Of a stretch of 40,619 nucleotides of DNA, positions 3,052 to 21,266 are shown piece by piece. Under the pieces are notes generated by a model. That model had not been told where the DNA came from, did no database searches, and saw only the letters and a program-made list of their open reading frames with translations. Positions within the stretch are counted from its first letter, which is position 1. Every line of letters begins with the position of its first letter. The DNA comes from a virus. The stretch covers positions 1 to 40,619 of the IMG/VR virus record IMGVR_UViG_3300045988_070645; one strand, 5' to 3'. Both the position numbers and the translations under genes were made by a program.

Positions 3052-3130
3052 TTTGCTGACACAAACGGACAAGAGGCGGAGCCGGGCAATGTAAAGCTCC
3101 GCCTCTCTTATAATTGGCCATGTCAGCAAA
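3052..3130. promoter_or_regulatory. Divergent control region: inverted TGTCAGCAAA motifs flank an 11-bp-stem hairpin and a TATAAT box.
   Basis: TTTGCTGACA at 3052-3061 and TGTCAGCAAA at 3121-3130. AGAGGCGGAGC(3072-3082) pairs with GCTCCGCCTCT(3096-3106). TATAAT at 3108-3113. Confidence 0.5.
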
Positions 3131-3140
3131 GGAGACCATC

Positions 3141-4310
3141 ATGGCCTACACGATCCGCCAATACGCGACGAAATCCGGCAAACGCTACGAAGTCAGATAC
3201 CGCAAGCCGGACGGCACGACCACAGGCAAAAGAGGCTTCCGGCGCAAGATGGACGCCGACGCATGGGGTGCGGCCAACGTGACCACCGCGAAAAGCGTCG
3301 GAGCATACATCGACCCGCAAGCCGGAAGACGCTTGGTCGAGGATTTTTGGGAGCCGTGGATAGCGGCCAAAAAGACCAAAGCCAAGCCAAGCTACGTCAA
3401 GTCGCTGGAAGACGCTTGGCGCGTGCATGTGGAGCCGCAGTGGGGCATGAGGGAAGTGCAGTCGATCGCGCGAGGCGAGGTGCAGGGGTGGGTCACCGAT
3501 CTGGCCGGACGGCGCAGTGCGTCCGTGACGATTCGCGCCGAGAATCTGCTTCGCAGTCTCATGGAGAGGGCGAAGGCCGATCGGTGCATCCATGACAATC
3601 CATGCGACGGCATCGAGCTGCCGCGCAAGCAGGTGCGGAAGCACGTCTATCTCTCGGCTGACGAATTGTCTCGTGTGGCGATGCAGTGCGGGTGGCGTGA
3701 GCCGATCGTGCTGACCTTGGGCCTGTGCGGCATGAGGTGGGGTGAGCTTGTGGCGCTCCGTGTCGAGGATGTCGATCTGCAACGCTGTCGGCTGCATATA
3801 TATAGGAGCATCACGCGTCTTTCCAGCAGGATGGTGGAGACCGACCCGAAAACCCATGATGGACGTTCGGTGATGTTTCCCCTGGTGTTGCGTCCACTGC
3901 TCGCCAGGCAATGCGAGGGGCGCAGGCCGTCCGATTTTCTTTTCACCGCTCCCGGCGAGCCTTTGGACGAGCCGATGGGGAATGGCTGGAATCCGACGCG
4001 AAGCGATGGGTGGTTCGCGGTGGCTCTTCGTCGCGCGGGCGTGGATCGTGGCCACATGACGATTCACGATCTGCGCCATACGGCCGCTTCGCTCATGGTG
4101 CAGTCAGGCGCGAACGTCAAGACCGTGCAAAGGCAGCTGGGGCACAAGTCGGCCGCCATGACATTGGATGTTTACGCCGATCTCTTCGATGATGATCTGG
4201 ACGAGTTGTCGGAGAGGATGGGTGGTTTGCTTTTTTCGCGGAATGTGGGCAAAATGTGGGCAAACGTGACGCAAGGTGTCGATGGAACCGTTGAAACGGT
4301 TGGTGTCTGA
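3141..4310 (+). CDS. int: Phage integrase (tyrosine recombinase)
   Basis: AAGGAGA RBS before the ATG at 3141. N-terminal arm-binding-like MAYTIRQYATKSGKRYEVRYRKPDG, plus MRWGEL (R), HDLRHTAAS (HxxR) and LDVYADL (Y). It lies next to the attP-like site. Confidence 0.9.
   Translation: MAYTIRQYATKSGKRYEVRYRKPDGTTTGKRGFRRKMDADAWGAANVTTAKSVGAYIDPQAGRRLVEDFWEPWIAAKKTKAKPSYVKSLEDAWRVHVEPQWGMREVQSIARGEVQGWVTDLAGRRSASVTIRAENLLRSLMERAKADRCIHDNPCDGIELPRKQVRKHVYLSADELSRVAMQCGWREPIVLTLGLCGMRWGELVALRVEDVDLQRCRLHIYRSITRLSSRMVETDPKTHDGRSVMFPLVLRPLLARQCEGRRPSDFLFTAPGEPLDEPMGNGWNPTRSDGWFAVALRRAGVDRGHMTIHDLRHTAASLMVQSGANVKTVQRQLGHKSAAMTLDVYADLFDDDLDELSERMGGLLFSRNVGKMWANVTQGVDGTVETVGV
4245..4262 (+). repeat. Putative arm-type site (GTGGGCAAAATGTGGGCA), copy 1, inside the int 3' end
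   Basis: 18-bp exact direct repeat of 4455..4472. Confidence 0.6.
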
Positions 4311-4322
4311 GGCTTTTTGCCG

Positions 4323-4347
4323 GTGGGTTCGAGTCCCGCTGGAGGCA
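4323..4347 (+). other. attP core candidate: the 3' end of a tRNA gene (T-arm, acceptor 3' strand and discriminator)
   Basis: GTGGG-TTCGAGT-CCCGC, then TGGAGGC-A. It lies immediately downstream of int. Confidence 0.65.
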
Positions 4348-4354
4348 CTTTTGG

Positions 4355-5298: not shown

Positions 5299-6084
5299 AT
5301 GAAGAAACTGATTTACCTCGTGCTATCCGTGCTGTGCGCAATCTCCGGCATCTACGGCATCTACGACACCATCACCACACCGCAGGATGATCTGGCCACA
5401 AGCATCATAACGATTCTGCTCCTCGCCTTCCTTGCATGGCTTTTCATGCATCTCTTCCTCAATCCGGAGCCGCGCCATAAGCATCAAGCGACGAATACGC
5501 CTGAATCGTCGCCGGAAGCACCCTCAGACGCTCCAACAGCGGAAACGGCACCAATCACCCACAGCAACGCGAATAGTGGCGTGGAGGACGATTACGTGGC
5601 TGTGGATATTGAGACCACCGGCCTAGGTCGTGACGCTCGAATCATCGAGCTGGGAGCCGTGAGAATCAGGCACGGACGCAAAGTCGCGTCATACAGCCAG
5701 CTCGTCAACCCCCAGATCCCAATACCAGCCAAGGTCACGCAGATCACCGGCATCGCCGACCGGGACGTCAAAGGCAAACCCACCATCGACAAAGCGCTAC
5801 CCAAATTCTACGCTTTCTGCGGGCGTGATACGTGGATAGGACACAATATTCGCCGCTTCGACATTCCGGTGATTGCCAGGGAAGCGCAGAGGGTCGGTGC
5901 CGGGATGCCGGACGTGAGCTTCTATGACACTTTGGAAGTCTCTCAGACGCTCTTGCCGCAGCTTGACCGCCATAGACTGCTCGACCTCATCCGCTATTTC
6001 GGCATCGCCAAGACCGAGCGTCATAGGGCCGCCGACGATGCTGCACAGACAGCGCAAATCTTCGAGCATTTGAAGCAGATATAA
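5299..6084 (+). CDS. Membrane-anchored DnaQ-like DEDDh 3'-5' exonuclease
   Basis: Two N-terminal hydrophobic helices (LIYLVLSVLCAISGIYGIY and IITILLLAFLAWLFMHLFL). Exo I is VAVDIETTG, Exo II is GHNIRRFDIPVI, Exo III is HRAADDAAQTAQIF. Confidence 0.75.
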   Translation: MKKLIYLVLSVLCAISGIYGIYDTITTPQDDLATSIITILLLAFLAWLFMHLFLNPEPRHKHQATNTPESSPEAPSDAPTAETAPITHSNANSGVEDDYVAVDIETTGLGRDARIIELGAVRIRHGRKVASYSQLVNPQIPIPAKVTQITGIADRDVKGKPTIDKALPKFYAFCGRDTWIGHNIRRFDIPVIAREAQRVGAGMPDVSFYDTLEVSQTLLPQLDRHRLLDLIRYFGIAKTERHRAADDAAQTAQIFEHLKQI

Positions 6085-9155: not shown

Positions 9156-9374
9156 GGCTGGGCGACGGTTCGCCCGTCCACGGATTCCAATCTCTTCTCT
9201 CTCTATCAAAAAACGCAGGCGCTCCGGTGCCCGCAAACCCTTTCAAGTCCGCCTGACGGCTTTCAGTCACCGTCGGCCACGCCACCGGCCGTGAACACGT
9301 TCAGGTCGTGTCCCAACAGTCAAAGGGGCGTTCGGAATCCACGGACGGCATCGGTTCGACTCCGATACCAGCCA
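9156..9374 (+). ncRNA. Candidate structured RNA: a tRNA-like scaffold (acceptor, D-like arm, T-arm) enclosing about 145 nt
   Basis: T-arm ATCGG-TTCGACT-CCGAT at 9350-9366. Acceptor GGCTGGG(9156-62) pairs with ACCAGCC(9367-73) at 6 of 7 positions. ACGG(9165-68) pairs with CCGT(9174-77). GGATTCC(9182-88) pairs with GGAATCC(9334-40). No credible ORF in the gap. Confidence 0.35.
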
Positions 9375-16417: not shown

Positions 16418-16557
16418 AGAAAATCCTCGAAGACATGATCATCAAATGGCACCAGGCCGGCTATGCGCTCGACGAGATCGCGCCGCTCGTGCCGCAAGTG
16501 CCGAAAGCCGAAATCGCCGCACTCATCCGCCAGCACGACAAGGAGACCAGACTTTGA
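16414..16557 (+). CDS. Hypothetical 47-aa HTH-like protein
   Basis: ATGA overlap. AGYALDEIAPLV... Confidence 0.4.
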   Translation: MKKILEDMIIKWHQAGYALDEIAPLVPQVPKAEIAALIRQHDKETRL

Positions 16558-17309
16558 CCGACTGCCAGCACTGCCACAAGCCAATGAAACCGGTGGCCGC
16601 GAATCTACTCTGCGCCAGCTGCCGAGAAAACTACTGGGCGCTCATCTGCCAACTCGGCCACGTCCAACTGCCCGCACTGCGAAGCATCATGCTCAAACAG
16701 GCCCACATCGGCCCCACAGGCCACACGCCAAACAAAGGCAACGCGCCAATACCCATCGACACGAGAGCGCAAGCCCTCATCACCGATTCCGAAGCATGGC
16801 TCGCCGAACACGCAGGCAAAATCAACGCACGCTACAGCAATCTTCCGTGGGACAAGGCATGGAAGAAGATCACAGCCAACAAACACACCATCCTCAGCAT
16901 GAGCACCGCAGCAGACGATTACGCAGCCCTGGGACACATCAGCCGACGCAACGAGACGGCCTTGACCCCAGAAGACGAATTGATAATCCTCGGCACCTGC
17001 CCCAACTGCCATCGTCAACTCACCGGCACGCCAGACGCCGAAACCGTCACCTGCCAACACTGCCGCACCGAATGGCCTGCACCAGCCATCAAAGCAGCAC
17101 GAGACGAACGACTATGGCAAGTGCAAATCACCGGCACGCCAAGCGACGCAGCCAAAGAACTCAAACGCTACGGATTATCCGTCTCACGCAACTTGATAAG
17201 CCAATGGCTCAGACGCGGCAAACTCACCCACGCCACGCCGACAAACACCAAGCGACAGTACGTGTTCAACCTAGGAGAACTCGCCGCCTTGCTTGACTGT
17301 CACCGTTGA
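16554..17309 (+). CDS. Zinc-ribbon plus C-terminal HTH protein, a possible late-gene regulator
   Basis: CQHC..CASC and CPNC..CQHC pairs, plus SDAAKELKRYGLSVSRNLISQWLRRGKL. TTG start overlaps the upstream stop. It is the last gene before the late operon. Confidence 0.45.
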   Translation: MTDCQHCHKPMKPVAANLLCASCRENYWALICQLGHVQLPALRSIMLKQAHIGPTGHTPNKGNAPIPIDTRAQALITDSEAWLAEHAGKINARYSNLPWDKAWKKITANKHTILSMSTAADDYAALGHISRRNETALTPEDELIILGTCPNCHRQLTGTPDAETVTCQHCRTEWPAPAIKAARDERLWQVQITGTPSDAAKELKRYGLSVSRNLISQWLRRGKLTHATPTNTKRQYVFNLGELAALLDCHR

Positions 17310-17376
17310 AATGCTATACTGTCGTACAGTAGTAAAATGGTTCAGCCTGAAAGGGCTGGGCCATTATTCATATCAA

Positions 17377-17535
17377 GCTTCGGTAGCTCAGTGGCAGAGC
17401 ACAAGGGATAGCACAGATACCTAGGACGGATACCAAACCGGTCATGGCTTCCTGCTTCTTTAAATCGAATGCCTGTGATGACAAAGACAGTGCATCCCAC
17501 ACCATGCGCTGGTTCGACTCCAGCCCGAAGCACCA
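17377..17535 (+). tRNA. tRNA-derived gene with canonical acceptor, D and T arms and an encoded CCA, but with a 94-nt extended helix in place of the anticodon arm
   Basis: GCTTCGG(17377-83) pairs with CCGAAGC(17525-31), 7 of 7. D arm is GCTC-AGTGGCA-GAGC. T arm is GCTGG-TTCGACT-CCAGC. A-CCA at 17532-35. GGGAT.GCAC(17405-14) pairs with GTGC.ATCCC(17490-98). Confidence 0.6.
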
Positions 17536-17549
17536 AAGGCGGTGAATCA

Positions 17550-17858
17550 ATGCCAGGAAGAGTCCGCAAGACCAGCCGCCAATTCGAAAAAGACAAGGCA
17601 AGCTTCTTCAACCAATGCAAGGCAAGCCATGCAGTCTGCTGGTTGTGTGGCATGCCAATCGACTATGCGGCACCGAAGAACACAAGCGATGACAGCTTCA
17701 ACCTCGACCACATGTTCCCAGTCAGCAAGCATCCAGAACTCCAATTCGACCCGGCAGGCTTCAAACCGAGCCACACCAGCTGCAACCGCTTGAGAGGCAA
17801 CCAAGATCCGCCGGCGCCAATCGGAACACTCTCAAGACAATGGATAACAACAGCATGA
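17550..17858 (+). CDS. HNH endonuclease
   Basis: CWLCG...NLDHMFPVSKHP...HTSCNRLRG. It lies next to the terminase genes. Confidence 0.8.
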   Translation: MPGRVRKTSRQFEKDKASFFNQCKASHAVCWLCGMPIDYAAPKNTSDDSFNLDHMFPVSKHPELQFDPAGFKPSHTSCNRLRGNQDPPAPIGTLSRQWITTA

Positions 17859-18001
17859 ACCCCACACGAGGGGTAGGGGCGGTGAAATCGTAAAACCAAC
17901 GCGAGGGTGCAAGACGTCCCGCGTGGTTGGTCTCCCTCTCCCCGATGAGTGAAATTGTTGGCGGGTCGCGCGCGCGATGGCAGATTAGGGGGTGTTTTTC
18001 G

Positions 18002-18340: not shown

Positions 18341-18350
18341 GGAGGTTGTG

Positions 18351-19964
18351 ATGGCGTCTGAGAATCTTACGGTTTTCGGTGCCATCGACGATGAGAGGCA
18401 TGGCGTGACCTTGCCGCGCATCTTCACGCCGCCGTTGCGTCCGTTGACGAGGGAGACGAGCAATGGTTTCGCGGTGATCGCGTTCGCGGAGATCATGCTT
18501 CACGTGCATTTGTATCCGTGGCAGCAATGGTTATTGGTGCACGCCTTGGAGCTGCTTGAGGATGGCAGCTACCGTTTCCGCAAGGTGATTGTGCTCGTGG
18601 CTCGCCAGAACGGCAAGACCACGCTGATGGGCGTGCTTGCCGCATGGTGGCTTTTCGTGGACTCGAACAAGCATCCTGACAGAGTACCGCCGGTGAAGTT
18701 TCTTGTGGTCGGTGCGGCTCAGACGTTGGACAATGCGAAAGGGCCTTACAATCAGGTCAAGGAATGGTGCAATCCTCAGCCTTCCACCGACGAGGAAGCG
18801 GATCTGGTGATTCCTGATCTCGCCGCGATGACACAGAAATTCGTCAATACGAACGGCGAGGAAGCGATCATCACCCGCTCGAAGGCGCGGTATATCGTCC
18901 GCGCCGACAAGAACATTCGAGCCAAGTCGGCGGCGCGTGTCGTGTTCGATGAGTTGCGTGAGCAACATACCGACGATGGTTGGAATGCCGTCAGCCAGAC
19001 CACTAAGGCCGTATGGTCGAGCCAATTATGGGGTATTTCGAACGCCGGTGACTATCGGTCTGTGGCGTTGCGCAAGCAGGTGGACAAGGGCCGTAAGCTT
19101 GTTGACGAGTGGGCGCGTCTGAGCGCCGACGGTGGCAATCCGTCCGACGTGTTCCTGTCCGGCGAGCAGGACGGCAGCTTCGGATATTTCGAATGGTCGG
19201 CTCCGGACAAGTGTCCGGTGGATGATGCCGACGCTATCCGGCAGGCGAATCCGTCGCTCGGCTATGGGCCGATGACCGTGCCGAGCGTCCGTTCGGATAT
19301 TGACGGCATGACCGAGGCCGCATTCCGAACCGAAGTGCTTTGCCAGTGGGTGACCGCCGACATCGTGCCATACATTCACCCGAAGCTCTGGGCCGCCGGT
19401 ATCGACGGCAAGTCGAGCATTCCCGCCGAGAATCGTGTGGTGCTCGCTGTGGACACTTCCGCCGACAGGCAGACCACGTATGTCGCTGCTGCTGGCCTTC
19501 GTGCCGATGGTTTGCCGCACGTGGAGCTGATCGCCCGTCGTGACGGAATGCTGTGGGTGCCGCATTTCCTCGACTTGCTTCGTGAGAGCTGGCCGTCGAT
19601 TTGCGAGATTGCCGTGCAGTCGAAGGGTTGTCCGGCTGTCGATTTCATCGACCCGCTCACCGAAAAAGGCTGGAATGTGCATTTGATTGAGGGCTTCCGT
19701 CTTGGCGCGTGCTGTGGCCGATTCCTAGACCGCGTGCGCGAAGGCAAGCTCAGGCATTTGCCCCAGCCGGCCATCGAACAGCAGGTTTCCGTGGCAGTGA
19801 CCCGCCGATTAGGCGAGGTCGAGGTGTGGGATCGTGGCAAGAGCGCCTTGCAGATCAGCGGCCTCATCGCCGAATCGGAAGCATTGTACGCGCTTGAGAC
19901 CATGCAGGTCGAAGCGGAAACACCGAAATACGCGCCGAGCGTGACGCATTTCGCCGTTGTCTGA
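18351..19964 (+). CDS. terL: Terminase large subunit
   Basis: Walker A VARQNGKTT. Size and position fit. GAGGAGG RBS. Confidence 0.85.
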   Translation: MASENLTVFGAIDDERHGVTLPRIFTPPLRPLTRETSNGFAVIAFAEIMLHVHLYPWQQWLLVHALELLEDGSYRFRKVIVLVARQNGKTTLMGVLAAWWLFVDSNKHPDRVPPVKFLVVGAAQTLDNAKGPYNQVKEWCNPQPSTDEEADLVIPDLAAMTQKFVNTNGEEAIITRSKARYIVRADKNIRAKSAARVVFDELREQHTDDGWNAVSQTTKAVWSSQLWGISNAGDYRSVALRKQVDKGRKLVDEWARLSADGGNPSDVFLSGEQDGSFGYFEWSAPDKCPVDDADAIRQANPSLGYGPMTVPSVRSDIDGMTEAAFRTEVLCQWVTADIVPYIHPKLWAAGIDGKSSIPAENRVVLAVDTSADRQTTYVAAAGLRADGLPHVELIARRDGMLWVPHFLDLLRESWPSICEIAVQSKGCPAVDFIDPLTEKGWNVHLIEGFRLGACCGRFLDRVREGKLRHLPQPAIEQQVSVAVTRRLGEVEVWDRGKSALQISGLIAESEALYALETMQVEAETPKYAPSVTHFAVV

Positions 19965-19982: not shown

Positions 19983-21266
19983 ATGGGTTTCTTTTCCAGA
20001 TGGCTCAAGAAAAGCCCCGTATCCGTGGCCCAGAAGTTCTCCGAATCACCAGTGAACATTTCACAGGTGGCGCAGATTCCAATCGACTGGTTCGGCGCTG
20101 GCGTTTACGAGCGTGAGGCTGCGGTGCGTACCGTCATCGACCATATCGCGCGGAACATCGCCAGCATGCCATTCAAGGTCTACACTCGACAGTCTGACGG
20201 CGATCGCGTGGAGGACACCACAAGCCCATTGGCGCAATTGATGGCCAAGCCGAGCGTGCTTCCGGGCATGACGCGCTACAGATTTTTCTACTCTTTGCTG
20301 TGTGATGGCCTGCTGAATGACCGGTGGCTTTGCCTGCTCGATGCCGACAAGCAGTCTGGTCGATTATGGTTGCGGCGTATTCCGGTGCAGAATTTCACGC
20401 TTTCCGGCAACACTCTTGATGAGATCACCGGCGTGCAGATCAGTACCGGCCAGCCGGAAGGCAGCCAGTATTTCAAGCTTCCCGACCCGCAGATTCTGCT
20501 GGACGTGGGCTACAGCACGTCCGGCATCGGCGGTTCTCCGGTGTCCGGCACTCTCGCCCCGCTTCTGGCGGAGGCTCGTGAGATGGCCGAATACCGCCGT
20601 GCGATCGCCAAGAACGGCGGTCAGATTCCGGCGTACATCTCGCGTCCGAAGGAGATGCCGTGGCCTTCGCAGGAGGCTCAGGACGAATTCGTGCAGGGCA
20701 TGAGGAATTACAAGGCTGGAGGCAATCTCGCCGGTGGCTGGCCCCTGCTCAACGACGGCATGGAAATCAAGACCGTGGACGCCTTCAAGCCGATCGACAT
20801 GCAGGACATCGACGCGAGGGACAAGATTCGCATAGACGTGGCCAACGCATTCCACATCGCGCCGGAGAATCTAGGCTTCCGCAGCGGCACGAATTCCAAC
20901 ATCAGCGCGTTCAAGGAGCAGATGTGGAATGTGGAGCTCATGCCTTACATCGTGGCTTTCGAGCAGTCGCTCAATCTGCTTCTGCCTGACGCGCTCGGCC
21001 AGCCGGACGCCTACATCGAGGCCAACGTGGACGCCAAGCTTCGCGGAACGTTCAGCGAACAGTATCAGGCGCTCAGCACGGCCACGGGACGCAGCTTCAT
21101 GACCACGAACGAGGCGCGCCGCATCCTGAACTATCCGAAGCTCGCAGGCGGTGACGATCTGGTGACGCCATTGAACGTCGCAACAGGCGGCCAGCCCAGC
21201 CCGCAGGACGGCGGCAGGACGCAGAACGCGCAACAGAACAATCCAGTGAACGGAGAAGACCAGTGA
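19983..21266 (+). CDS. Portal protein (HK97-type)
   Basis: Called from size, its position after terL and a portal-like sequence pattern. Confidence 0.8.
   Translation: MGFFSRWLKKSPVSVAQKFSESPVNISQVAQIPIDWFGAGVYEREAAVRTVIDHIARNIASMPFKVYTRQSDGDRVEDTTSPLAQLMAKPSVLPGMTRYRFFYSLLCDGLLNDRWLCLLDADKQSGRLWLRRIPVQNFTLSGNTLDEITGVQISTGQPEGSQYFKLPDPQILLDVGYSTSGIGGSPVSGTLAPLLAEAREMAEYRRAIAKNGGQIPAYISRPKEMPWPSQEAQDEFVQGMRNYKAGGNLAGGWPLLNDGMEIKTVDAFKPIDMQDIDARDKIRIDVANAFHIAPENLGFRSGTNSNISAFKEQMWNVELMPYIVAFEQSLNLLLPDALGQPDAYIEANVDAKLRGTFSEQYQALSTATGRSFMTTNEARRILNYPKLAGGDDLVTPLNVATGGQPSPQDGGRTQNAQQNNPVNGEDQ

What the first reader, a model, noticed from the sequence alone, without database searches (positions are those of the whole stretch)
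17377..17535. tRNA-derived gene with perfect acceptor, D and T arms and CCA, but a 94-nt extended helix instead of an anticodon arm
Every tRNA hallmark outside the anticodon arm is present. These are a 7 of 7 acceptor stem, U8-A9, GCTC-AGTGGCA-GAGC, GCTGG-TTCGACT-CCAGC, discriminator A and an encoded CCA. Between D and T arms, where about 17 nt should be, lie about 107 nt. They begin with a 9-bp helix with one bulge (GGGAT-a-GCAC at 17405-14 pairing with GTGC-ATCCC at 17490-98). I could not find any 5-bp stem plus 7-nt loop that would give a normal anticodon arm, with or without removing an insert. The insert is too short for a typical bacterial group I tRNA intron. The element lies between a promoter-like region containing a TACTGT-N3-ACAGTA palindrome (17317-31) and the HNH/terminase late operon. 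Together with the 9156-9374 element, this means both large plus-strand gaps ahead of operons hold a tRNA-like scaffold. Possible roles are RNase P/Z punctuation of polycistronic RNA, a decoy for host tRNA-targeting defences, or a new intron-containing or expanded tRNA class.
Basis: seen in the sequence. Interest (0 to 1): 0.72.

Follow-up and report, generated by a model that had tools for sequence, protein, structure and literature searches.

The report
Phage tRNA scaffold carrying an RNA cargo
A family of Bifidobacterium gut prophages starts its late (DNA-packaging and virion) operon with a conserved RNA that keeps every part of a tRNA except the anticodon loop, which is replaced by a folded domain of about 85 nucleotides, so it looks like a natural version of the laboratory 'tRNA scaffold' and cannot decode codons.

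Summary
It is far beyond chance: the Rfam tRNA model scores 40.4 bits (E 6e-7) with the anticodon arm skipped. The same element sits at the same place in at least 110 viral contigs, at least 119 human-gut metagenome contigs and a Bifidobacterium ruminantium genome, giving 128 distinct variants of 144-163 nt.

Compensatory changes keep the T stem and the long helix. The acceptor stem and the nucleotides that build the tRNA core and elbow do not vary. The insert folds as a closing helix plus two hairpins, a three-way junction.

It is not an ordinary intron-containing tRNA. No homologous excision gives a canonical anticodon arm in more than 6 of 27 diverse members. There is no group I signal and no tmRNA features.

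It lies behind a conserved sigma-70-type promoter and a covarying leader hairpin, ahead of the HNH-terminase operon. Streptomyces phage phiC31 has a normal tRNA-Thr at that position.

Best reading, not shown: a natural tRNA scaffold. Host tRNA enzymes would excise and stabilise the RNA, and the tRNA body would display a cargo domain of unknown partner. Some close relatives lack the element, so it is accessory. It is a new variant of the known kind 'tRNA-like RNAs'.

The parts
17293..17320 (+). Sigma-70-type promoter: TTGACT, 16-nt spacer, TATACT, with TG upstream of the -10 hexamer
   Evidence: scores it 10 of 12 consensus positions. Both hexamers stay the same in almost all of 104 relatives while the spacer varies. 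Promoter function is inferred from consensus and conservation only.
17317..17331 (.). TACTGT-N3-ACAGTA palindrome overlapping the -10 hexamer and the transcription start region
   Evidence: It is present in the window. About 60% of relatives carry TACTGTCGTATGTTCGTAG instead, so it is not a defining part of the element.
17336..17365 (+). Leader hairpin of about 13 bp, followed by the A/U-rich stretch AUUAUUCAUAUCAA
   Evidence: the scan flags it as terminator-like. The stem sequence differs between relatives with pairing kept, for example UUCAGCC/GGCUGGG versus GGCCCAGC/GCUGGGCC.
17377..17535 (+). The whole tRNA-like RNA, 159 nt including CCA
17377..17383 (+). Acceptor stem, 5' strand. It pairs with 17525-17531. 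A73 is at 17532 and CCA at 17533-17535.
   Evidence: Pairs 1-6 are identical in all 27 diverse members. Pair 7 is G-C in 21 members and A.A in type D.
17386..17400 (+). D arm GCTC-AGTGGCA-GAGC
   Evidence: 98% of cells paired. U8, A14, the D-loop GG and A21 are invariant or nearly so.
17405..17498 (+). Cargo domain in place of the anticodon loop. P1 closing helix: 17405-09/17494-98 and 17411-14/17490-93. Junction strand AGAUACCUA: 17415-23. P2 hairpin: 17424-42. P3 hairpin: 17443-77. Junction strand AUGACAAAGACA: 17478-89.
   Evidence: RNAalifold predicts P1, P2 and P3 independently. P1 shows G-C to A-U (6 sequences) and A-U to G-C (3 sequences). The P3 base changes U.G to U-A. The apical loops vary in length.
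17499..17507 (+). Linker of 6-9 nt in the place of the variable loop; variable in sequence
17508..17524 (+). T arm GCTGG-TTCGACT-CCAGC
   Evidence: 100% of cells paired. Two pairs change on both sides, and one of them shows three pair types: U-A, C-G and G-C.
17537..17545 (+). Shine-Dalgarno-like AAGGCGGTG of the HNH gene, starting 2 nt after the CCA
   Evidence: conserved in relatives.
17550..17858 (+). HNH endonuclease gene, first gene of the late operon. TerS follows at 17927, TerL at 18348 and portal at 19983.
   Evidence: PHROG 338, E 1.4e-25. Homologues in other actinophages begin at about this start.

Best explanation
The element is a phage-encoded, tRNA-derived RNA that does not decode. 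I read it as a natural tRNA scaffold.

Proposed mechanism. It is transcribed from a conserved sigma-70-type promoter as the first structured part of the late (HNH, terminase, head, tail) transcript of temperate siphophages of the Bifidobacterium adolescentis group. It folds into the tRNA L-shape, with the acceptor and T arms stacked and the D/T elbow intact. The anticodon stem continues into a closing helix that carries a three-way-junction domain of about 85 nt. Because all features read by the tRNA maturation machinery are kept, RNase P would cut at G17377 and the 3' end would be trimmed to, or completed with, CCA. This would release a stable RNA of about 155-160 nt and, in the same step, set the 5' end of the late mRNA. 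The tRNA body serves as processing handle and nuclease shield. The conserved junction domain is the working part and most likely binds a phage or host factor that is still unknown.

Shown here: the sequence features, their conservation and covariation, the genomic position, and the absence of an anticodon arm.

Inferred: transcription, processing, stability, and any partner of the cargo domain.
For: tRNA body:
- The Rfam tRNA model scores 40.4 bits with the anticodon arm skipped.
- The nucleotides of the tRNA core and elbow are invariant in 27 diverse members: U8, A14, the D-loop GG, A21, G53, U54, C56, A58 and C61.

Structure under selection:
- 91% of cells are paired in the proposed structure, against 28-38% when the partners are slid. 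No shuffle of 500 reaches the observed covariation score.
- The T stem has two pairs with changes on both sides, and P1 has two.
- RNAalifold finds the same architecture on its own.

Spread and non-coding nature:
- At least 110 viral contigs, at least 119 gut metagenome contigs including contigs over 300 kb, and a B. ruminantium genome carry it.
- The 128 variants have lengths in all three classes modulo 3, so the region is not coding.

The cargo is conserved in its own right:
- Types A and D share AUACC, ACGG, CCAUGG and AUGAUGA/GUGAU around the junction, while the loops vary.

Position:
- The promoter hexamers and a covarying leader hairpin lie upstream.
- The module is kept ahead of the first late gene even where that gene is a different HNH type.
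- phiC31 has a canonical tRNA-Thr 2 nt before gp29, then gp30 (HNH), then TerS.

Established knowledge:
- Engineered tRNA scaffolds keep the acceptor, T and D arms and replace the anticodon stem-loop with an insert. Bacteria recognise them, process them precisely and let them accumulate (PMC3753655).
- An acceptor/T-arm minihelix is enough for RNase P (from memory: McClain, Guerrier-Takada and Altman 1987).
Against: - There are no expression or processing data of any kind.
- 12 of 80 close TerL relatives lack the element and carry another module upstream of HNH. Several contigs hold an internal-deletion derivative. The element is therefore dispensable for the phage life cycle.
- If only processing mattered, a plain tRNA or a minihelix would do. 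If the cargo matters, its partner is unknown.
- One variant, L051, lacks the apical part of P3.
- Covariation comes from only four or five clades, so much of the statistical signal reflects shared ancestry.
- The G.U versus A.C strand test was inconclusive, 31 against 42 cells.
- Other actinophage HNH relatives have no tRNA-like RNA upstream.
Confidence: 0.5

Rival explanations
1. It is a trans-acting tRNA mimic or decoy. The released RNA, possibly aminoacylated through its strictly conserved acceptor stem and A73, would occupy or mislead a factor that reads the acceptor/T-arm/elbow. Candidates are a tRNA-targeting defence toxin, a tRNA-dependent transferase, EF-Tu or a tRNA-modifying enzyme. 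This overlaps with the best explanation: it names the purpose of the cargo and body rather than denying the scaffold idea.
For: Acceptor pairs 1-6 and A73 do not vary at all, while the T stem and P1 change with compensation. This hints at sequence-specific reading of the acceptor end. CCA is encoded in most members. Phage tRNAs are known counter-defence tools (for example bioRxiv 10.1101/2023.03.15.532788, listed).
Against: There is no G3.U70, no G-1 and no long variable arm, so the synthetases known to ignore the anticodon are not obviously served. Only A73 would fit LeuRS. Without an anticodon loop it cannot decoy anticodon nucleases. Some members have G73 or lack CCA. No defence or anti-defence protein is linked to it.
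Confidence: 0.2
2. It is a cis-acting leader that regulates late genes by attenuation, antitermination or control of HNH translation or mRNA stability. In this reading the tRNA-like fold stays attached to the mRNA as a 5' protective structure or as a platform for a regulator.
For: It lies in the 5' untranslated region, behind a strong consensus promoter, a -10-like TAAAAT/TAGAAT at 17333-38 and a terminator-like hairpin. This resembles lambdoid late-promoter regions. The Shine-Dalgarno sequence begins 2 nt after CCA. A Zn-ribbon gene of 251 aa with unknown function (PHROG 908) lies directly upstream in 60 of 60 loci that have the element. An encoded CCA is an anti-determinant for RNase Z (established knowledge), which could keep the RNA fused to the mRNA.
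Against: The predicted fold does not sequester the Shine-Dalgarno sequence within the element. The distance to the start codon and the identity of the first gene differ in some members. A full tRNA core with an invariant elbow is more than a stabiliser needs. The hairpin has no proper U tract.
Confidence: 0.17
3. It is a real tRNA gene interrupted by an unrecognised kind of intron that is removed to give a decoding tRNA.
For: The insert sits where the anticodon loop would be. ARAGORN in intron mode proposes models. In type B members GAGGG/CCCUC could form a 5-bp anticodon stem.
Against: The ARAGORN models disagree between homologues: Ala-TGC in the window, Thr-AGT in MT836208. With the other arms perfect, ARAGORN accepts almost any middle segment. 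With strict criteria (5 pairs, U33, purine 37), the best homologous excision works in only 6 of 27 members. No group I intron hit appears at E up to 10. The insert is 77-94 nt, well below the roughly 200 nt of the smallest known group I introns (memory). There is no bulge-helix-bulge motif, and the host is a bacterium.
Confidence: 0.04
4. It is a decaying tRNA pseudogene, or a DNA-level signal such as a packaging site or an attachment site, with no RNA function.
For: Some relatives have lost it or carry deletion derivatives. L130 and L175 keep only the 3' remnant GCACGAAGCACCA. It is close to the packaging genes.
Against: Compensatory substitutions keep four helices. The tertiary-interaction nucleotides are invariant. 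It persists across at least 128 variants. The integrase-linked att fragment lies elsewhere, at 4326-36. By analogy with HK97 and phiC31, the cos site is expected after HNH, not before it (memory).
Confidence: 0.05

Closest known systems
Engineered 'tRNA scaffold' for recombinant RNA (Ponchon and Dardel; described in PMC3753655)
   Same: The acceptor stem, T arm and D arm are kept. The anticodon stem-loop is replaced by an insert closed by a helix. The design works because the cell's tRNA machinery recognises, processes and spares the chimera.
   Different: That scaffold is man-made, and its cargo is chosen by the experimenter. This one is natural, conserved in a phage lineage, embedded at the head of an operon, and carries a cargo of unknown function.
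Leader tRNA of the late operon in Streptomyces phage phiC31 (tRNA-Thr, AJ006589 40702-40777)
   Same: Both are temperate actinophages with the same gene order: tRNA or tRNA-like, then HNH, then cos, then TerS, then TerL, then portal. The RNA lies a few nucleotides before the first late ORF.
   Different: phiC31 has a canonical 76-nt decoding tRNA without encoded CCA. The element here has no anticodon arm. There is no sequence relationship beyond general tRNA features.
Phage T4 stable RNAs, species 1 (rnaC, 139 nt) and species 2 (rnaD)
   Same: Both are phage-encoded stable RNAs of about 120-140 nt with tRNA-like ends and a T arm, and their function is still unknown. rnaC gives only a weak tRNA-family hit of 17.5 bits. 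RNase P processing of these RNAs is from memory.
   Different: rnaC has no recognisable D arm or full tRNA core. It lies in a tRNA gene cluster, not at the head of the late operon. There is no sequence similarity. The window's second element (9156-9374) resembles rnaC more than the finding does.
tmRNA tRNA-like domain
   Same: Acceptor stem, T arm and ACCA end, with a long helix leaving from where the anticodon stem would be and enclosing an internal domain.
   Different: tmRNA has G3.U70, no D stem, a tag reading frame, pseudoknots and 250-400 nt. Here the pair is U3-A70, the D arm is full, there is no tag ORF, the length is 159 nt, and the ARAGORN tmRNA search is negative.
Bacterial Y RNA-like YrlA (PMC4201824), and viral or eukaryotic tRNA-like RNAs (mascRNA; the MHV68 tRNA-like/miRNA units, from memory)
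   Same: A tRNA-shaped module is joined to a second functional module. The tRNA-like part is used for recognition by tRNA enzymes rather than for decoding.
   Different: In YrlA the RNA ends lie in the Ro-binding stem and the acceptor-like stem is capped, which is a permuted topology. No Rfam hit to these families appears at E up to 10.

Membership tests
Canonical tRNA (Rfam RF00005) | 7-bp acceptor stem, discriminator base and a 3' CCA (encoded or added) | tested here: met
   7/7 pairs in the window. Pairs 1-6 are invariant in 27 members. A73 and CCA are present in most.
Canonical tRNA (Rfam RF00005) | D arm and T arm with the conserved nucleotides of the core and elbow | tested here: met
   U8, A14, GG, A21, G53, U54, C56, A58 and C61 are invariant. 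Type D members have C55 instead of U55.
Canonical tRNA (Rfam RF00005) | Anticodon arm: 5-bp stem and a 7-nt loop with U33 and purine 37, giving an anticodon | tested here: not met
   the model's anticodon-arm positions are skipped. ARAGORN finds nothing; at most 6 of 27 members could form one after any homologous excision.
Canonical tRNA (Rfam RF00005) | Length of about 70-95 nt | tested here: not met
   144-163 nt in 128 variants.
Bacterial tRNA with a group I intron | Group I catalytic core in the insert | tested here: not met
   No Intron_gpI match at E up to 10 in 17000-17900. The insert is 77-94 nt.
Bacterial tRNA with a group I intron | Joining the exons restores a standard anticodon arm | tested here: not met
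tmRNA | G3.U70 alanine identity pair, tag reading frame, pseudoknots, no D stem | tested here: not met
   The pair is U3-A70 and the D arm is full. The ARAGORN tmRNA search is negative. The length is 159 nt.
Y RNA-like (YrlA) and other described tRNA-like families in Rfam | Match to the family covariance model | tested here: not met
   The only match in the region that reaches a family's gathering score is RF00005. None is found at gathering threshold over the whole window.
tRNA-scaffold architecture (works-like comparison, not a phylogenetic family) | Acceptor, T and D arms kept; anticodon stem-loop replaced by an insert closed by a helix | tested here: met
   definition taken from PMC3753655.
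tRNA-scaffold architecture (works-like comparison, not a phylogenetic family) | Precise processing by RNase P and 3' enzymes, and accumulation as a stable RNA | not testable with these tools
   Needs Northern blots, RACE and in-vitro RNase P assays.

The most novel reading that the evidence does not exclude
The RNA is a new functional class: a chargeable or CCA-bearing tRNA body whose anticodon loop has been exchanged for a dedicated binding domain. Bifidobacterium prophages would use it in trans, for example to neutralise a host factor or defence that reads tRNA acceptor/elbow features, or to bring a tRNA-handling enzyme to a specific partner. The second tRNA-ended RNA at 9156-9374 would then make this a general strategy of these phages.
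Probability: 0.15. Interest if true: 0.85.

Novelty: new variant of a known kind. Interest (0 to 1): 0.6.

Why it matters
tRNA-shaped RNAs that do not decode are known: tmRNA, YrlA, mascRNA and the T4 stable RNAs. I found no natural bacterial or phage RNA in Rfam or in the searched literature that keeps the complete tRNA core and carries a conserved structured domain exactly where the anticodon loop should be.

The element is common in prophages of a dominant human-gut genus. Standard tRNA and RNA-family annotation misses it.

If it is processed as predicted, it would show that phages found the 'tRNA scaffold' trick long before it was engineered. It would also supply a compact, naturally optimised scaffold for expressing RNA in Bifidobacterium. 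Finally, it gives a handle on how late operons of actinophages are started and matured. Finding the partner of the cargo domain could uncover a new phage-host interaction.

Tried and rejected
1. ARAGORN in intron mode gives models that disagree between homologues. It also produces an obvious false positive inside the terminase gene at 18935-19155.

2. I enumerated all single excisions and rescored them with ARAGORN. This was uninformative, because ARAGORN calls a tRNA for almost any middle segment. I replaced it with a strict, column-homologous test.

3. I searched for a normal-sized ancestor with the same acceptor, D and T sequences. The acceptor sequence occurs in Thr, Phe, Lys, Asn and Ile tRNAs of unrelated phages, so no isotype of origin can be named. 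The only family-related hits were internal-deletion derivatives.

4. The strand test by G.U versus A.C cells was inconclusive. The strand rests on the tRNA features, the promoter and the gene orientation.

5. All-against-all column covariation is swamped by clade structure, so no tertiary or pseudoknot pairs can be claimed. A possible P3-loop/3'-junction pairing (UCUUU with AAAGA/AGAGA) was seen by eye but is not established.

6. I considered hammerhead, box C/D or k-turn readings of GUGAUGA. The motif is not conserved: other members carry GUGAUAAG, GUGAUCAG or GUCAUGAG.

7. A complementarity between the leader hairpin and the T arm is not conserved in type D.

8. The two tRNA-like elements of the window share only the T loop.

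9. HNH relatives in Corynebacterium, Propionibacterium, Arthrobacter and Gordonia phages have no tRNA-like RNA upstream.

10. Pfam, PHROGs, NCBIfam, PADLOC and PDB searches of neighbouring proteins found no tRNA-processing or RNA-binding enzyme linked to the element.

11. Literature searches found no description of this element.

Full report
**1. The observation**

- The acceptor stem GCTTCGG (17377-83) pairs 7/7 with CCGAAGC (17525-31).
- T8 and A9 are present.
- The D arm is GCTC-AGTGGCA-GAGC (17386-17400).
- The T arm is GCTGG-TTCGACT-CCAGC (17508-24).
- A73 is at 17532 and CCA at 17533-35.
- 107 nt lie between the D and T stems.
- They begin with GGGAT-a-GCAC (17405-14), which pairs with GTGC-ATCCC (17490-98).

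Default ARAGORN finds no tRNA or tmRNA in the window. The whole-window Rfam scan at gathering threshold finds nothing either. A sensitive Rfam scan of 17000-17900 gives a full-length tRNA match on the + strand: 40.4 bits against a gathering score of 29, E 6.2e-07. The anticodon-arm positions of the model are skipped over a 90-nt insert. No other family, including group I introns, small ribozymes and Y RNA-like RNAs, appears at E up to 10.

The single-sequence fold gives the cloverleaf plus the long helix, but its z-score is modest at -1.86. The case therefore rests on comparison with relatives.

**2. A conserved family**

One GenBank record matches, an unannotated human-faecal phage scaffold (MT836208). 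It is 84% identical over the region and carries the element with a T stem changed on both strands, GUGGG/CCCAC.

An exact 17-mer from the insert occurs in 110 IMG/VR contigs. It also occurs in two genome assemblies, Bifidobacterium ruminantium DSM 6489 and a MAG binned as Collinsella.

All are from human gut, all belong to this family, and some contigs exceed 300 kb, which indicates integrated prophages.

Together there are 128 distinct sequences of 144-163 nt. Their lengths fall in all three classes modulo 3, so the region does not code for protein on either strand.

The window itself is a temperate siphophage. It carries an integrase at 3114-4310, RecT, SSB, RusA, a methyltransferase, HNH, TerS, TerL, portal, tape measure and endolysin. 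The neighbouring protein has near-identical copies in B. adolescentis and B. catenulatum.

**3. Structure**

Relatives found through the terminase brought in a divergent 'type D' element and intermediates. I aligned 27 diverse members (A2) and scored the proposed structure.
- 91% of cells are paired, against 28-38% when the partners are slid.
- No shuffle of 500 reaches the observed covariation score.
- The T stem is 100% paired. Two of its pairs change on both sides, and one shows U-A, C-G and G-C.
- The long helix P1 changes G-C to A-U in 6 sequences and A-U to G-C in 3.
- Acceptor pairs 1-6 never vary.

RNAalifold recovers the same architecture on its own: acceptor, D, P1 in two segments, a P2 hairpin, a P3 hairpin and the T arm.

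The nucleotides that build the tRNA core and elbow are invariant: U8, A14, the D-loop GG, A21, G53, U54, C56, A58 and C61. Type D members have C55 instead of U55.

The insert is therefore not a simple long helix. It is a closing helix that continues the anticodon stem and carries a three-way junction. The strands around the junction are conserved between the types (AUACC, ACGG, CCAUGG, GUGAU or AUGAUGA). The apical loops vary in sequence and length.

There is a caveat. The diversity comes from four or five clades, so all-against-all covariation is dominated by shared ancestry, and I claim no tertiary pairs.

**4. What it is not**

It is not an ordinary intron-containing tRNA.
- ARAGORN's intron mode gives Ala-TGC for the window and Thr-AGT for MT836208. 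These rest on a 3-bp stem and a 5-bp stem respectively.
- ARAGORN accepts almost any middle segment once the other arms are perfect.
- I applied strict criteria (5 pairs, U33, purine 37) and required homologous splice columns. The best excision then works in only 6 of 27 members.
- The insert has no group I signal and is far too short for one.

It is not a tmRNA. The third acceptor pair is U3-A70, the D arm is complete and there is no tag frame.

It is not a recent mobile insertion into a tRNA. No 'empty' version exists. The only short versions are internal deletions that also damage the T arm.

It is not a decaying remnant, given the compensatory changes.

**5. Context**

A sigma-70-type promoter lies upstream: TTGACT, 16 nt, TATACT, at 17293-17320. 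Its hexamers are kept in almost all of 104 relatives while the spacer varies.

A hairpin of about 13 bp follows at 17336-65. Its stem differs between relatives with pairing kept.

The HNH Shine-Dalgarno sequence starts 2 nt after CCA, and the ATG is at 17550. In some relatives the first late gene is a different HNH type, the spacing is 32 nt and the 3' end reads G-CUA instead of A-CCA. The promoter-hairpin-RNA module is nevertheless kept.

Among 80 close terminase relatives:

| State of the element | Loci |
|---|---|
| Intact | 61 |
| Internal deletion | 1 |
| Absent, with another module upstream of HNH | 12 |
| Could not be judged | 6 |

Two of the 12 loci without the element keep a 3' remnant. 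The element is therefore accessory.

A Zn-ribbon gene of 251 aa with unknown function (PHROG 908) lies directly upstream in all 60 intact loci checked. That may be mere linkage.

Streptomyces phage phiC31 has a canonical tRNA-Thr 2 nt before gp29, followed by gp30 (HNH) and gp31 (TerS). This is the same position in the same kind of late operon. Six other actinophages with related HNH genes have nothing tRNA-like there.

**6. How it most likely works**

Several things are shown. The RNA keeps everything that tRNA-processing enzymes read: a 12-bp acceptor/T stack, the elbow, the discriminator and usually CCA. It lacks the anticodon loop, the only part needed for decoding. Instead it carries a conserved folded domain. 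It also sits first in the late transcript.

From established knowledge, an acceptor/T-arm minihelix suffices for RNase P. Engineered tRNA scaffolds have exactly this layout, with acceptor, T and D arms kept and the anticodon stem-loop replaced by an insert. Bacteria recognise them, process them precisely and let them accumulate (PMC3753655).

I therefore infer that the element is a natural tRNA scaffold. RNase P would cut at G17377, the 3' end would be matured at CCA, and a stable RNA of about 155-160 nt would be released. The late mRNA would gain a defined 5' end in the same step.

The conservation of the junction domain argues that the cargo, not just the processing event, is under selection. 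Its partner is unknown.

My confidence that this is a real, structured, tRNA-derived non-decoding RNA is about 0.9. Confidence in RNase P processing is about 0.6. Confidence in the full scaffold-plus-cargo reading is about 0.5.

**7. Rivals**

- A trans-acting mimic or decoy, possibly charged, is the most interesting alternative. The invariant acceptor stem fits it, but no known anticodon-independent identity set is present.
- A cis-regulatory leader is possible. The strong promoter, the -10-like TAAAAT/TAGAAT just downstream and the terminator-like hairpin recall lambdoid late regions, and CCA would block RNase Z.
- An unknown kind of intron and a functionless remnant are both unlikely.

**8. 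Comparison and novelty**

The closest things by function are:
- the engineered tRNA scaffold;
- the leader tRNA of phiC31;
- the T4 species 1 and 2 stable RNAs, where rnaC has a T arm and tRNA-like ends but only 17.5 bits to a tRNA-family model;
- the tRNA-like domain of tmRNA;
- YrlA.

The element fails the defining tests of canonical tRNA (anticodon arm, length), of group I intron-containing tRNA and of tmRNA, and it matches no other described Rfam family. I found no description of it in papers on Bifidobacterium prophages or on tRNA-like RNAs. I rate it a new variant of a known kind, namely tRNA-like non-coding RNAs.

**9. The second element**

That gap contains a conserved RNA of about 219 nt with these features:
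- an acceptor stem GGCUGG/CCAGCC;
- a T arm AUCGG-UUCGACU-CCGAU;
- discriminator A and no CCA;
- a long-range helix GGAUUCC/GGAAUCC;
- several internal hairpins with compensatory changes;
- a pyrimidine-rich single strand.

It shares only the T loop with the finding. It scores 17.8 bits against tRNA-Sec, much as T4 rnaC does. Two tRNA-ended RNAs at the heads of two operons strengthen the idea that these phages use the host tRNA-processing machinery for their own RNAs.

Noticed in passing
window 9156-9374 (+): A second conserved structured RNA of about 219 nt with tmRNA-like topology. It has an acceptor stem GGCUGG/CCAGCC, a T arm AUCGG-UUCGACU-CCGAU, discriminator A, no CCA, a long-range helix GGAUUCC/GGAAUCC, internal hairpins with compensatory changes and a CU-rich single strand. 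There are 15 distinct variants in relatives. Its -10 region shares TAYACTGTCG with the late promoter. It is not a tmRNA: the third acceptor pair is C3-G70, no tag frame is conserved, and ARAGORN is negative. Rfam gives only 17.8 bits to tRNA-Sec.
   Followed up: partly
window 4318-4352 (+), just after the integrase gene 3114-4310: The 3' part of a tRNA: a T arm GTGGG-TTCGAGT-CCCGC followed by TGGAGGCA. This is most likely the attachment-site copy of the host tRNA end used by the integrase. It is a third T-loop match in the window and is unrelated to the finding.
   Followed up: partly
window 5299-6084 (+): A gene in the lysogeny region encodes a hydrophobic N-terminal segment followed by a DEDDh/RNase T-type 3'-5' exonuclease domain (Pfam RNase_T E 5.6e-33; PADLOC DEDDh E 2e-36 and PDC-S48). 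It may be a prophage-borne defence or exclusion gene. Any link to the CCA-ended RNAs is pure speculation.
   Followed up: partly
window 17333-17365 (+): A -10-like hexamer (TAAAAT here, TAGAAT in many relatives) lies a few bases after the predicted start site and just before the terminator-like leader hairpin. The layout recalls lambdoid late promoters, which have a sigma-dependent pause and a downstream terminator. No Q-like protein was identified.
   Followed up: no
window 16554-17309 (+) (ORF listed as 16446-17309): A Zn-ribbon protein of 251 aa with unknown function (PHROG 908; some sources name it 'PhnA protein'). It ends inside the -35 region and lies directly upstream of the element in 60 of 60 intact loci. 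It is absent from that position in relatives without the element.
   Followed up: partly
L185, L209 and L228 (internal deletions); L130 and L175 (3' remnant): Some contigs carry a 74-nt derivative made by deletion between two ACGGTC repeats. The deletion removes the cargo and damages the T stem. Other contigs have replaced the promoter and the 5' part with minus-strand small genes and keep only ...GCACGAAGCACCA before the HNH Shine-Dalgarno sequence.
   Followed up: partly
type D members, e.g. L118 around 1290-1436: The T loop reads UCCGACU, with C55 in place of the almost universal U55. Acceptor pair 7-66 is A.A. About half of these members end in ACUU rather than ACCA.
   Followed up: no
L004, L031, L032, L070 and L025, downstream of the element: The first late gene is a different, Cys-rich HNH-type protein of 131 aa (MYKVCSTSGCPHLV...) instead of the 102-aa HNH of the window. 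The upstream RNA module is kept, so the first late gene has been replaced by a non-orthologous one behind the same leader.
   Followed up: partly
window 18935-19155 (+): ARAGORN in intron mode reports a 'tRNA-Leu(aag) with a 125-nt intron' inside the terminase large-subunit gene. The acceptor stem is rich in G.U pairs and the call lies within coding sequence, so it is an artefact of the permissive mode.
   Followed up: no
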